In this document: piece after piece, positions 26,455 to 29,552 of the stretch
Layout of the letters: every line of letters starts with the position of its first letter
How positions within the stretch are numbered: the first letter of the stretch is position 1
Sequence record: PQ471516.1
DNA length: 64,000 nucleotides
Strand: one strand, 5' to 3'
DNA from: Escherichia phage Turkey5
The notes under the pieces: model-generated
Told to the model about the DNA's origin: nothing
What the model saw: the letters and a program-made list of their open reading frames with translations, nothing else
Database searches by the model: none
Made by a program: the position numbers and the translations under genes

Positions 26455-26500
26455 GATATAAAAAAACCAGACCTGATACTAAAGGTCTGGTTATATTTTT
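26455..26500. terminator. bidirectional rho-independent terminator
   Basis: Hairpin CCAGACC-(10 nt)-GGTCTGG flanked by an A-run upstream and TTATATTTTTTATTT downstream. Confidence 0.6.
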
Positions 26501-27396
26501 TATTTACCGGATATTACAACCTTGCCACTAAATGCAACATAGGATGTGAATATAACATTACCACTAGCATCAATTTGAGTTTCAGCAGTAACAGCTTCAA
26601 AAGGTGCAAGAGCAGTACTGCCTTGTACTTTATTACCGTATAGAGAAACGTATAGATTGTCAGGGGTTTGTTTATGATCTGCTGCTGGAATAGTTAGAGT
26701 GAATTGATCACCGGAAGCTACCCAATCAGCCTGATTAATAAGTTTACTGTATGGTACTGTCATAGTTGTTGCTCCTATAATATTAATTTTAACACTTGCG
26801 TATTCTGAAAGCTGACCAACTACTTCTAGAGTTATATCACCAATACCAGAAACTGTAACGTTAGTTTGGAATACAGAATCCAAATCGACATCACCTGGGT
26901 CACCTTGCAATTGAACCATAATATCAGCACCGCGACCATGAATAGATTCAGGAAGAGTGTATGTATATTTGTCAGATGAACCTGGCTCCAATACAAATGC
27001 TGAAACTGGAACAGTATGTGTGGTTACATAAGAACTATCACTACCAGGAGTAGATGATTTAAGTGGTTTCCATACACCAAGGTCTTTAATATAAATCTGA
27101 AGTGTATTTTCAGCATCAACTAGGAAATACACATCACCATCGGTTCCCAATGCATCAGCAGGAGCTACAGTACCGCGAAGAATACCACCAGCACCACCGC
27201 CACCATGTGCGTTTAAATATCCCAAGGTTACCAGATGGGTATTAGCTGTTGGGTCAGCCGCAGAAATTGGAAGAAGACCAGTTCCTGTATAGTTTTGAAT
27301 TTGCACAACACTACCATTCGTAGTGATTTGTGCACCATTTTTACCAAGTATGAAGGTCTTCTTCATGGTTCCTTCTAAATTAGAAAAAACTGCCAT
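26500..27396 (-). CDS. tail fibre/spike protein (298 aa) with conserved N-terminal anchor MAVFSNLEGTM (start corrected from 27405)
   Basis: AAAGGAG lies 9 nt upstream of ATG 27396 but abuts ATG 27405; N-terminal 25 aa match the next gene; contains a Gly run and a fibre-like VTLGYLNAH motif. Confidence 0.6.
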   Translation of the reverse strand: MAVFSNLEGTMKKTFILGKNGAQITTNGSVVQIQNYTGTGLLPISAADPTANTHLVTLGYLNAHGGGGAGGILRGTVAPADALGTDGDVYFLVDAENTLQIYIKDLGVWKPLKSSTPGSDSSYVTTHTVPVSAFVLEPGSSDKYTYTLPESIHGRGADIMVQLQGDPGDVDLDSVFQTNVTVSGIGDITLEVVGQLSEYASVKINIIGATTMTVPYSKLINQADWVASGDQFTLTIPAADHKQTPDNLYVSLYGNKVQGSTALAPFEAVTAETQIDASGNVIFTSYVAFSGKVVISGK

Positions 27397-27410
27397 TTTA
27401 ATCATCTCCT

Positions 27411-29552
27411 TTATGATAGAGTTATATATGTTATTGGCTGTGCCGCTTTTAATAATGCACCTGCTGCTGTAGCAGTTACAATTGGGTCGGCAATGTCAAC
27501 GCGGTATGCGTTTGATACTACGTAAACTGCTCTGGTGATGTATGTTAATAAATCTTCACCATTTGCCCCAGCACCTGTAATGAGTATTTGTGTTCCAGCA
27601 GCTTTCGCATATTGGTTATCACCCCATGATACGCCTAACGCCTCTATATATGTTTGTCCTACAACCGTTTGTCGTATGGTGTCGTATTTTCCGAAGAAAG
27701 AACCACCAACTGTTACAATATATTTACTCCCTGACTGGTTGTGAATAATTGTACCTTGTGGGAAATAACGACCACCAGGGAACGTGTCATATGGAACATA
27801 ATATTGTTCAACTACAGGTATCAGTACTGGACCACGGTGACCAGTTCCGTCAATATCAGTTGGTACTTTAAAGTTGTTAGATGATTGGTCAATTCTATCC
27901 ACATACATTTTAGCAAAACTATATTTGGATATGTTACAATCATCTTGGACTACACAGTTTGTCCAGTTTGTATATGTATATTTAGAACGGGTATACAAAC
28001 CACCACCTTCACCTTCTGTTGACAAGTGTTGACCAATAACATCTAACTCTTTAGTGCGAATATCACTAAACTTAGAAGCTGATGGAAGACCACGCCATTG
28101 AATCTTAGTACAAGTTACATTTGATAATTCAGTATTGTTTGTCCAGTTATCAGAACAAGATGTATAAACTAAAATAGTTGATTCTGGAATATACAAATTA
28201 GATAATTTAAAGTTACGTGGAGGTCCAGCAAATTTACCAGAAGTTACACCCCAGTTTATAGAAACCATACGTGTAGTTACTGATGCGTCATTTAATAGAT
28301 GTCCAGTAAGACCATCGACAATAAAGTCTTTTGAACCATAAGTGATAACACCACAGGTAGTAAGGCCAGTACCAGTCGATACCAATGAGGATGGATATAC
28401 CTCGTTATCTAAAATTTTAAAATCTTTACCAACTTCAACGTGAATACACTGACGAACGTTATAAACTCTATTGTTTTTAATAACAAAGTTTTTAACATAT
28501 TGTGAATCAGGAGCATCAACGTCATATGGACCAGAACCCGCTACCCCAATTCCTATACCCCAGTTTGATAATGGGATTGGTGCATTAGTACCGTCAACGT
28601 TTTCAATAATATTTCCTTCAATTACAAAACCATCAGGATAATGAGAGTTGATAACGTTTAGTTCGATTGCATCCCCATAGATATCGTGAATATGGTTATA
28701 AGAATAACGCCCTACTGTCATTTTTTCACCCGTGCCTTGTTGAAGAACTCCATACTTACAAAGAGTCATTTCATTAAAGCAGAAATCAATAGTGCCAGTT
28801 TGAGTCATACCTTGCATTAAAAACGCAGCAGTACTGGTAATGTTTATAAATTTATTAAAATAAAATTTACCATCACCACCAAAGAATTTAAGATAACAAC
28901 CAGTTAATGTAGCAAATTGTATATGGCAGTTGATTACAGAAATCATAGTACCGCCGTTACCTGTTATTGTTCCACCAAACCAAGTTATATCTTCCAAGTA
29001 TAAGGCTGTTTTAATTCTATAATTACCTTTACCTTGAACTTGAATTTTATTCTCTTTTGCATATACTGCACAGGCATTTACTGCCGCAGTGTCATCTGTT
29101 TCACCATCACCTGCTGCCCCAAACTCTTCTGGAGTTACATAGAACTGTGCTTGTTGAAGTGTTCCTCCTGTTATCAATCCAATATAATCTCCTCCGTTAA
29201 CACTTGACAAAATATCTTTATTAACGTATAGTGATTTTACCCATTTACCATCAATTTTTAGAAATATATCAACAATCCCTTCACTGTTAGTTTGGAAATA
29301 TGTATAATTATTTTTACCGATATCATCTGAAGGGATGGCTTCACCAAACATTACGGTTGGGTGATCTTCTAGATACTTAACATTGACAGCAGAATCGGCA
29401 TCAACCGCAGACCCTACTTTAACTGGTAGAAATTTTTCACCAAATGAATCCTTTATTGAAATGGAATCATCTGAAAAACTAATCAAGGCTCCTTTTTTAC
29501 CAAGGATGAATGAGGGCTGCATGGTTCCTTCTAAATTAGAAAAAACTGACAT
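27411..29552 (-). CDS. tailspike-like protein (713 aa), probable right-handed beta-helix / polysaccharide depolymerase fold (start corrected from 29558)
   Basis: Track start is TTG; ATG 29552 has GGGGG RBS 8 nt upstream. N-terminus MSVFSNLEGTM shared with the 298-aa fibre; central Asn/Gly/Ile/Val-rich repeats typical of pectate-lyase-like folds. Confidence 0.5.
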   Translation of the reverse strand: MSVFSNLEGTMQPSFILGKKGALISFSDDSISIKDSFGEKFLPVKVGSAVDADSAVNVKYLEDHPTVMFGEAIPSDDIGKNNYTYFQTNSEGIVDIFLKIDGKWVKSLYVNKDILSSVNGGDYIGLITGGTLQQAQFYVTPEEFGAAGDGETDDTAAVNACAVYAKENKIQVQGKGNYRIKTALYLEDITWFGGTITGNGGTMISVINCHIQFATLTGCYLKFFGGDGKFYFNKFINITSTAAFLMQGMTQTGTIDFCFNEMTLCKYGVLQQGTGEKMTVGRYSYNHIHDIYGDAIELNVINSHYPDGFVIEGNIIENVDGTNAPIPLSNWGIGIGVAGSGPYDVDAPDSQYVKNFVIKNNRVYNVRQCIHVEVGKDFKILDNEVYPSSLVSTGTGLTTCGVITYGSKDFIVDGLTGHLLNDASVTTRMVSINWGVTSGKFAGPPRNFKLSNLYIPESTILVYTSCSDNWTNNTELSNVTCTKIQWRGLPSASKFSDIRTKELDVIGQHLSTEGEGGGLYTRSKYTYTNWTNCVVQDDCNISKYSFAKMYVDRIDQSSNNFKVPTDIDGTGHRGPVLIPVVEQYYVPYDTFPGGRYFPQGTIIHNQSGSKYIVTVGGSFFGKYDTIRQTVVGQTYIEALGVSWGDNQYAKAAGTQILITGAGANGEDLLTYITRAVYVVSNAYRVDIADPIVTATAAGALLKAAQPITYITLS

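What the first reader, a model, noticed from the sequence alone, without database searches (positions are those of the whole stretch)
26500..29552. Conserved N-terminal anchor MxVFSNLEGTM shared by two consecutive fibre/spike genes with unrelated C-terminal domains
After start-codon correction both genes begin M(A/S)VFSNLEGTM...FILGK.GA and then diverge completely. A shared short N-terminal module with swapped distal domains is the usual signature of interchangeable receptor-binding proteins docking on one baseplate site, or of a recent cassette exchange.
Basis: seen in the sequence. Interest (0 to 1): 0.5.

Follow-up and report, generated by a model that had tools for sequence, protein, structure and literature searches.

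The report
Shared attachment module on two tail proteins
Two neighbouring tail-appendage genes of a jumbo E. coli phage share a roughly 110-residue N-terminal module, most likely for attachment to the virion, fused to unrelated outer domains, one of them a colanic-acid-degrading tailspike; this is a real but ordinary case of modular phage receptor-binding proteins.

Summary
The window is an Asteriusvirus jumbo coliphage, about 99% identical to vB_EcoM_JNE01. Both genes lie on the minus strand. Gene A (26500-27396, 298 aa) and gene B (27411-29552, 713 aa) start with MAVFSNLEGTM / MSVFSNLEGTM.

Homology runs to residue 107-112 (35% identity, E=3e-17), and only after that are the proteins unrelated.

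The shared part has two pieces: a family-specific anchor of about 65 residues, and one copy of a widespread fibre repeat.

Gene A is the ortholog of a virion protein conserved in all RaK2-like jumbo phages (GAP32 gp221, CBB_227). Gene B joins that module to a Phi92-gp150-type colanidase tailspike (PDB 6E0V, E=1e-239).

The same anchor heads other depolymerases and 1200-1366-aa BNR fibres in uncultured phages. It also stands alone as a 115-aa protein in RaK2.

The exchange is not recent. The B-A pair is fixed across the genus and in a more distant relative.

Docking to the virion is inferred, not shown.

Verdict: a new member of a known kind (modular receptor-binding-protein anchor). Interest is low to moderate.

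The parts
26500..27396 (-). Gene A, 298 aa plus stop. It is the ortholog of the conserved RaK2-like-group virion structural protein (121Q gp572, GAP32 gp221, CBB_227, Munch 253; PHROG 10468).
   Evidence: The CBB_227 protein was detected in virions by mass spectrometry (PMC5259590).
27205..27396 (-). Gene A anchor, residues 1-64. It contains the invariant motif M-A/S-V/I-F-S-N-x-x-G-T-M...F-x-L-G-K-x-G, then small beta strands and a helix at residues 58-64.
   Evidence: Invariant columns in alignments A1 and A4. The anchor-only profile hits at E=5e-36. The AF2 model has pLDDT 85-92 for residues 11-60 and 55 for residues 1-10.
27061..27183 (-). Gene A fibre-repeat unit, residues 72-112 (ILRGT..P....G.DGDVY......I..K..G.W). 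A Gly-rich linker (residues 65-71) precedes it.
   Evidence: Profile positions about 65-110 recur 3-15 times per protein in most of the listed hits, many of them fibre or collagen-like proteins. The model shows beta hairpins at residues 72-111.
26503..27030 (-). Gene A distal part, residues 123-298: two beta-sandwich domains of unknown function. The same domain also sits on an Eneladusvirus 377-aa structural protein that has a different N-terminus.
27411..29552 (-). Gene B, 713 aa plus stop. It is the ortholog of 121Q gp573, the 'colanic acid-degrading protein'.
29361..29552 (-). Gene B anchor, residues 1-64.
   Evidence: The anchor-only profile hits at E=1.6e-30. Pairwise alignments.
29232..29357 (-). 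Gene B fibre-repeat unit, residues 66-107, with no Gly-rich linker. Homology to gene A ends here.
27414..29231 (-). Gene B colanidase tailspike domain, residues about 108-713: a beta-helix that is homologous to Phi92 gp150 along its full length.
   Evidence: PDB 6E0V matches at E=9.9e-240 over B residues 100-712. PHROG 6117 matches at E=1e-253. The junction with the Phi92-like protein falls at about residue 105-110.
27406..27409 (-). Shine-Dalgarno sequence GGAG of gene A, 9 nt upstream of ATG 27396. It starts 2 nt after gene B's stop codon (one A lies between them).
   Evidence: Sequence read directly. The same 9-nt spacing is found in CBB and GAP32.
29561..29565 (-). Shine-Dalgarno sequence GGGGG of gene B, 8 nt upstream of ATG 29552.
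   Evidence: Sequence read directly. Alignment A2.
29567..30694 (-). Upstream neighbour, 375 aa: a 'tail protein' with a collagen-like stretch (121Q gp574, GAP32 gp222, RaK2 ORF062w). It lies immediately upstream of the anchor-bearing gene(s) in every relative examined and is a candidate docking partner (inference only).
   Evidence: PHROG 13565 matches at E=1e-209. It is 71% identical to RaK2 ORF062w. Synteny shown.

Best explanation
Genes A and B encode two co-expressed tail or baseplate appendage proteins. Both are built on the same N-terminal attachment module of about 110 residues. The module has a family-specific anchor of about 65 residues, whose first 21 residues are almost invariant, followed by one copy of a common fibre beta-hairpin repeat.

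Gene A is the ancestral, conserved carrier of this module in RaK2-like jumbo phages. Its distal part is two beta-sandwich domains of unknown binding function.

Gene B arose by copying the module, including the repeat unit, and fusing it to a horizontally mobile colanidase tailspike of the Phi92 gp150 type. B's likely job is to strip the colanic-acid layer from E. coli.

The anchor most likely fixes both proteins, presumably as trimers, to equivalent docking sites on a conserved virion component. The distal domains can then be exchanged or lost without disturbing assembly.

Shown here: the homology, the domain boundaries, the identity of B's distal domain, the conservation and synteny, and the reuse of the anchor on other distal domains.

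Inferred: physical docking, the identity of the partner, and trimer formation.
For: **Homology and its limits**
- A and B are homologous over residues 1 to about 110 and unrelated beyond.
- Only these two genes in the window carry the module.
- Whole Asteriusvirus genomes show two matching places each; other RaK2-like genera show one.

**Gene A is the conserved carrier**
- A orthologs have 52-57% identity and the same position (tail protein, then A, then the giant fibre gene) in GAP32, CBB and Munch.
- CBB_227 was found in virions by mass spectrometry.

**Gene B is a chimera**
- B residues 100-712 match Phi92 gp150 (PDB 6E0V) at E=1e-239.
- Phi92 gp150 is a biochemically characterised colanic-acid hydrolase (PMC13450770).
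- The colanidase module occurs behind different N-termini in Justusliebigvirus, Phapecoctavirus, Vequintavirus-like phages and podophages.

**The anchor is reused elsewhere.** A profile search of 1.8 billion representatives finds it at residue 1 of:
- a KP32gp37-like tailspike with an S74 chaperone domain (P0105);
- a different beta-helix tailspike (P0112), encoded on the same 120-kb contig as P0105;
- 1204-1366-aa BNR-repeat fibres;
- stand-alone proteins of 111-115 aa, including RaK2 ORF061w.

**Structure**
- The AF2 model (pLDDT 88.5) shows a small N-terminal domain whose first 10 residues have low confidence. That would fit a peptide ordered only when bound to a partner.

**Partner**
- RaK2 keeps the anchor-only protein although it lacks the GAP32/CBB-type giant fibre gene. 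This argues that the partner is a conserved virion component and not that fibre.
Against: - There is no direct evidence of binding, and no multimer model could be run.
- Virion presence of gene B's product is not documented in the papers read. The phAPEC6 record does not even annotate the two genes, so its proteome is uninformative.
- The function of A's distal domain is unknown.
- The module could serve trimerisation or folding instead of docking.
Confidence: 0.7

Rival explanations
1. Recent cassette exchange or gene conversion. Under this reading, the identical first 33 nt reflect a recent copy event between the two genes.
For: - In the first 33 nt, 32 of 33 positions are identical, including all synonymous sites.
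- In that stretch, window B is closer to window A (1 difference) than to its own ortholog 121Q gp573 (4 differences).
Against: - The same 33-nt sequence is identical in 121Q gp572, CBB_227 and GAP32_221, which belong to different genera. This looks like conservation, not local conversion.
- Identity falls to 21/30 in nt 34-63 and 18/57 in nt 64-120. The modules are 35% identical overall.
- The B-A pair is fixed across the genus and beyond.
- With only 11 codons, no firm test is possible.
Confidence: 0.08
2. The shared module is a folding, trimerisation or assembly-chaperone recognition element and not a virion-docking anchor. It would be needed to nucleate trimer formation of otherwise unrelated fibres.
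For: - The second half of the module is a generic fibre repeat found inside many fibre shafts.
- The P....D.V...Y helix motif is common near the start of fibre shafts (own knowledge).
- No structural match to a known docking domain was found.
Against: - The module always sits at residue 1.
- The stand-alone 111-115-aa versions (RaK2 ORF061w, P0009, P0010) have nothing to trimerise or fold.
- Colanidases fold behind quite different N-termini.
- The most conserved part is the extreme N-terminal peptide, which the monomer model predicts with low confidence (pLDDT 55 for residues 1-10).
Confidence: 0.15
3. The near-invariance of the first 11 codons at the nucleotide level reflects a translation-initiation or mRNA-level signal shared by the two genes, and has nothing to do with the protein.
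For: At identical residues, codon identity is 9/9 between window A and each of 121Q, CBB and GAP32 in codons 1-11. Elsewhere in the gene it is about 45-55%.
Against: - The peptide is also conserved where the codons differ: RaK2 5/8 and Munch 4/7 identical codons.
- Metagenomic anchors keep the residues F-S-N-x-x-G-T.
- The sample is small and the lineages are not independent.
Confidence: 0.05

Closest known systems
Multi-RBP / branched tailspike systems with conserved N-terminal attachment modules (CBA120 TSP1-4; G7C gp63.1/gp66; KP32 gp37/gp38; SP6/K1-5; RaK2 gp526-534)
   Same: Several receptor-binding proteins in one genome carry homologous N-termini and unrelated, horizontally exchanged distal domains. 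Depolymerase cassettes are shared with unrelated phages (PMC10253068; bioRxiv 10.64898/2026.05.12.724579).
   Different: - The anchor sequence family here is different. The Pfam copy used has no match to it.
- It is not the module used by RaK2's own gp526-534 long-fibre network.
- Only two carriers are present, and one of them is a conserved non-enzymatic protein.
Phi92 gp150 colanidase tailspike (PDB 6E0V/6E0W; PHROG 6117)
   Same: B residues 100-712 align end to end with the crystallised gp150 fragment (E=1e-239). The beta-helix depolymerase is therefore the same, and presumably has the same substrate.
   Different: The N-terminus differs. The full-length gp150 homolog of the Phi92-like phage muut, 804 aa (the fetched proxy for Phi92 gp150), has about 195 unrelated residues before the junction, whereas B has the 107-residue RaK2-group module.
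GAP32 gp221 / CBB_227 / 121Q gp572 family (PHROG 10468, 'virion structural protein')
   Same: Gene A is a full-length ortholog at the same genomic position.
   Different: Nothing material. The family has no assigned function, and the shared anchor was not mentioned in any of the papers read.
RaK2 ORF061w (115 aa hypothetical protein)
   Same: It has the same N-terminal module (55-56% identity to A over the N-terminal module) at the syntenic position, next to ORF062w.
   Different: It has no distal domain at all. It is a natural anchor-only version.

Membership tests
Modular RBP set sharing an N-terminal anchor | Two or more genes in one genome have homologous N-termini and unrelated C-terminal domains. 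| tested here: met
   A and B match at E=3e-17 over about 110 aa. Their C-terminal parts show no similarity (best E=1.1).
Modular RBP set sharing an N-terminal anchor | The same anchor is found on further, different distal domains in other phages. | tested here: met
   P0105, P0112, P0117, P0136, P0162, P0171, P0181 and P0192 carry it at residue 1. Their distal parts include Peptidase_S74, Beta_helix and BNR domains.
Modular RBP set sharing an N-terminal anchor | The anchor physically binds a baseplate, tail or adaptor protein. | not testable with these tools
   No multimer prediction or experiment was available. The only pointers are the low-confidence N-terminal peptide and the conserved neighbour gene.
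Modular RBP set sharing an N-terminal anchor | The proteins are present in the virion. | tested here: inconclusive
   The A ortholog CBB_227 was detected by mass spectrometry. B was not documented in the papers read. The phAPEC6 record lacks both CDSs.
Phi92 gp150-type colanidase tailspike | Full-length sequence homology to the solved beta-helix enzyme. | tested here: met
   PDB 6E0V matches at E=9.9e-240 over 613 residues. PHROG 6117 matches at E=1e-253.
Phi92 gp150-type colanidase tailspike | Colanic-acid hydrolase activity and conserved catalytic residues. | not tested
   Activity is published only for Phi92 gp150 (cited in PMC13450770). Catalytic residues were not mapped here.
PHROG 10468 / GAP32 gp221-like virion protein (gene A) | Full-length homology and a conserved position between the 'tail protein' gene and the giant fibre gene. 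| tested here: met
   PHROG match at E=5.5e-89. 52-57% identity and shared synteny.
T4 gp10-like / CBA120 TSP docking domains | Structural similarity of the N-module to XD/D1-type domains. | tested here: not met

The most novel reading that the evidence does not exclude
The 65-residue 'M-x-x-F-S-N-x-x-G-T' anchor may be a so-far undescribed, widely distributed docking module for phage receptor-binding proteins. It would plug into a conserved socket, possibly the collagen-like 'tail protein' encoded just upstream. It tolerates any distal cargo: a colanidase, other depolymerases, BNR-propeller fibres, Ig-like domains, or nothing at all, as in RaK2 ORF061w, which would act as a bare plug for the socket. 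If so, it would give a defined handle for re-targeting RaK2-like jumbo phages.
Probability: 0.4. Interest if true: 0.45.

Novelty: new member of a known kind. Interest (0 to 1): 0.3.

Why it matters
The finding assigns a likely role to a conserved but unannotated virion protein family of RaK2-like jumbo phages (121Q gp572, GAP32 gp221, RaK2 ORF061w). It also explains how Asteriusvirus phages mount a colanidase on their tail.

The domain boundaries found here (anchor 1-64; junction at about residue 107-112) give concrete fusion points for engineering new specificities onto these phages.

It adds no new principle. Anchor-plus-cassette modularity of receptor-binding proteins is well established.

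Tried and rejected
- **Single-sequence AF2 of A.** It gave a useless model (pLDDT 36). Only the 96-sequence alignment worked.
- **First word-indexed homolog search with the N-module profile.** It returned only 11 short proteins. The exhaustive profile search was needed.
- **Sequence and fold searches of A against the PDB.** No meaningful relative was found.
- **Moabite's six-gene fibre cluster.** I considered that it uses the same anchor. It does not; it has its own, different shared N-terminus.
- **The upstream 'tail protein' or P0088 as a third anchor carrier.** Neither is. P0088 shares A's C-terminal domain instead.
- **Looking for a shared docking partner.** I compared all window ORFs with the flanks of the metagenomic anchor genes. 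Only the anchors themselves match.
- **Whole-genome profile scan.** It was not run on the whole JNE01 genome. The count of two carriers per genome rests on tblastn.
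Full report
**Identity of the window**

Window 26400-29700 is 99.8% identical to Escherichia phage vB_EcoM_JNE01 (Asteriusvirus, 355 kb). It is about 78% identical to 121Q, PBECO4, phAPEC6 and about 30 other Asteriusvirus genomes. Over 43 kb, identity to JNE01 is 99.07%.

Both genes of the finding are on the minus strand:
- Gene A is 26500-27396 (298 aa).
- Gene B is 27411-29552 (713 aa).

In 121Q these are gp572 ('virion structural protein') and gp573 ('colanic acid-degrading protein').

**The observation**

With the ATG starts, the proteins begin MAVFSNLEGTMKKTFILGKNGA and MSVFSNLEGTMQPSFILGKKGA.

The starts are sound.
- A Shine-Dalgarno sequence (GGAG or GGGGG) lies 8-9 nt upstream of each ATG.
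- The same spacing is seen in 121Q, CBB, GAP32, Munch and RaK2, and sequence conservation begins exactly at the ATG.
- The JNE01 and 121Q records use the same starts.
- The upstream alternatives would add only 3 residues (MIK) or 2 residues (MI) and abut the Shine-Dalgarno sequence.

The similarity does not stop at FILGK.GA.
- BLASTP gives E=3e-17.
- Global alignment gives 16/21 identities in residues 1-21, 10/43 in residues 22-64 and 11/43 in residues 65-112, for 37/107 overall.
- Beyond that point the proteins are unrelated (best E=1.1).
- In the window, only these two ORFs carry the module.

**Anatomy of the shared module**

I searched a profile of the N-module against 1.84 billion representative proteins. 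The result splits the module into two parts.
- **Positions 1 to about 65** are a family-specific anchor. It always sits at residue 1 of the hit.
- **Positions about 65-110** are a generic repeat (L-x-G-T-x-x-P-x-x-x-x-G-x-x-G-D-x-Y ... K-x-x-G-x-W). It occurs 3-15 times in most of the listed hits, many of them fibre or collagen-like proteins.

An AF2 model of A built on a 96-sequence alignment has mean pLDDT 88.5. It shows:
- a low-confidence N-terminal peptide (residues 1-10, pLDDT 55);
- a small beta domain ending in a helix at residues 58-64;
- a Gly-rich linker;
- a beta-hairpin unit at residues 72-111;
- two beta-sandwich domains at residues 124-208 and 216-296.

No solved structure resembles it convincingly.
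- Foldseek against the PDB found nothing at E<1e-3.
- Among predicted viral structures, the clear matches (E down to 3.5e-32, 28-80% identity) are the family itself; a 712-aa entry that is probably a gene B ortholog also matches over 108 residues; the few other hits at E<1e-3 are collagen-like or tail proteins at 11-18% identity.
- The Pfam copy used has no model for the anchor.

**What the two genes are**

Gene A is the ortholog of a protein conserved across RaK2-like jumbo phages: GAP32 gp221, CBB_227 and Munch gp253, at 52-57% identity, in PHROG 10468. It always lies between a 375-380-aa 'tail protein' gene and the giant long-fibre gene. CBB_227 was found in virions by mass spectrometry (PMC5259590).

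Gene B residues 100-712 match the crystallised Phi92 gp150 colanidase tailspike (PDB 6E0V) at E=1e-239. Phi92 gp150 is a characterised colanic-acid hydrolase (PMC13450770).

That colanidase cassette is widespread behind other N-termini:
- Justusliebigvirus, at 59% identity;
- Phapecoctavirus;
- 4MG-like phages;
- podophages;
- a more distant copy elsewhere in GAP32.

The junction falls right after the repeat unit, at about residue 105-110. Gene B is therefore a chimera of the RaK2-group N-module and a Phi92-type colanidase.

**Distribution and age**

- tblastn with B's N-module finds two places per genome in every Asteriusvirus record and in the Salmonella SD-* phages. It finds one place per genome in Alcyoneusvirus, Mimasvirus, Eneladusvirus and others.
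- A metagenomic relative whose A protein is only 61% identical has the same 375-723-300-aa gene order.
- B's N-module is no closer to Asteriusvirus A than to A of other genera.

The fusion is therefore old. It is not a recent cassette exchange.

The striking 32/33-nt identity of the first 11 codons is shared with CBB and GAP32. This points to conservation more than to conversion. Synonymous-codon identity there is above background, 9/9 against about 50% elsewhere. I cannot explain that firmly.

**The anchor on other cargo**

The anchor heads several other kinds of protein:
- P0105, 780 aa: a KP32gp37-like tailspike with a Peptidase_S74 chaperone domain.
- P0112, 705 aa: a different beta-helix tailspike, encoded on the same 120-kb contig as P0105.
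- Five fibres of 1204-1366 aa with BNR repeats.
- Short proteins with other tails.
- Stand-alone proteins of 111-115 aa, including RaK2 ORF061w, which sits at the syntenic site.

RaK2 retains this bare anchor and the highly conserved upstream tail protein (71% identical to the window's). Yet it lacks the GAP32/CBB-type giant fibre gene. This suggests that the anchor's partner is a conserved virion component.

**Mechanism**

Best supported: A and B are companion appendages mounted through a common N-terminal anchor. B adds colanic-acid stripping to the phage's adsorption apparatus.

Shown: homology, domain boundaries, enzyme identity, conservation and reuse of the anchor.

Inferred: docking, the partner and trimer formation.

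Rivals, all weaker (details in the rivals section):
- recent gene conversion;
- a trimerisation or folding element;
- an mRNA-level signal.

**Comparison and verdict**

This is the familiar anchor-plus-cassette design of multi-RBP phages such as CBA120, G7C, KP32, SP6/K1-5 and RaK2 gp526-534 (PMC10253068). Here it uses an anchor family I could not find described in any paper read, in the Pfam copy used, or in the PDB.

It is a new member of a known kind. It is useful for annotation and engineering, and not surprising.

Noticed in passing
window 15000-21362 and 21501-26387 (minus strand): There are two giant fibre genes in tandem (2120 and 1628 aa, both PHROG 4549), with 75-81% nucleotide identity between segments. 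121Q, GAP32, CBB and Munch have a single gene at this position, so this looks like a lineage-specific tandem duplication.
   Followed up: partly
window about 29192; L001 (JNE01) 21012-23154: The JNE01 GenBank record has one extra G here. It splits the colanidase gene into a 141-aa anchor fragment and a 588-aa remainder. The window copy is intact. The frameshifted fragment (P0007) is recorded on 28 contigs, so it may be a real circulating variant and not a sequencing error.
   Followed up: partly
L003 (RaK2) 6001-6348: RaK2 ORF061w is a stand-alone 115-aa copy of the N-module with no distal domain, at the syntenic position. Similar proteins of 111-113 aa (P0009, P0010) exist in metagenomes.
   Followed up: partly
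window 26503-27030; P0088: Gene A's C-terminal double beta-sandwich is also found at the C-terminus of a 377-aa Eneladusvirus structural protein with an unrelated N-terminus (E=4e-17). The distal domain is therefore itself a shuffled module.
   Followed up: partly
window 27364-27396 and 29520-29552: The first 11 codons are nearly invariant at the nucleotide level, not only between A and B but also across genera. Identical codons number 9/9 against 121Q, CBB and GAP32, compared with about 50% elsewhere in the gene. The cause is unknown.
   Followed up: partly
L007 10001-20688: A 120-kb metagenomic phage contig carries two anchor-bearing tailspikes (780 and 705 aa). They flank a second pair of proteins (902 and 919 aa) that share a different N-terminus with each other (MSKKI.G.L.V...). 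This gives two anchor families in one RBP cluster.
   Followed up: no
L014 (phAPEC6) 2410-5615: The phAPEC6 GenBank record has no CDS between gp253 and gp256, although the DNA for both genes is there at 77.5% identity. The published virion proteome therefore cannot speak to these two proteins.
   Followed up: no
window 29567-30838: The mechanical ORF begins at TTG 30838 (423 aa). Homologs and the JNE01 annotation start at ATG 30694 (MTISFNNG..., 375 aa). The protein has a collagen-like G-x-y stretch and is 71% identical to RaK2 ORF062w, which is unusually conserved for this group.
   Followed up: partly
L013 (Serratia phage Moabite) 741-15731: Six consecutive tail fibre/spike genes share their own N-terminal motif (..I(T/S)(E/Q)LP....ND...P...), which is unrelated to the anchor studied here. 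This is another example of the same design principle.
   Followed up: no
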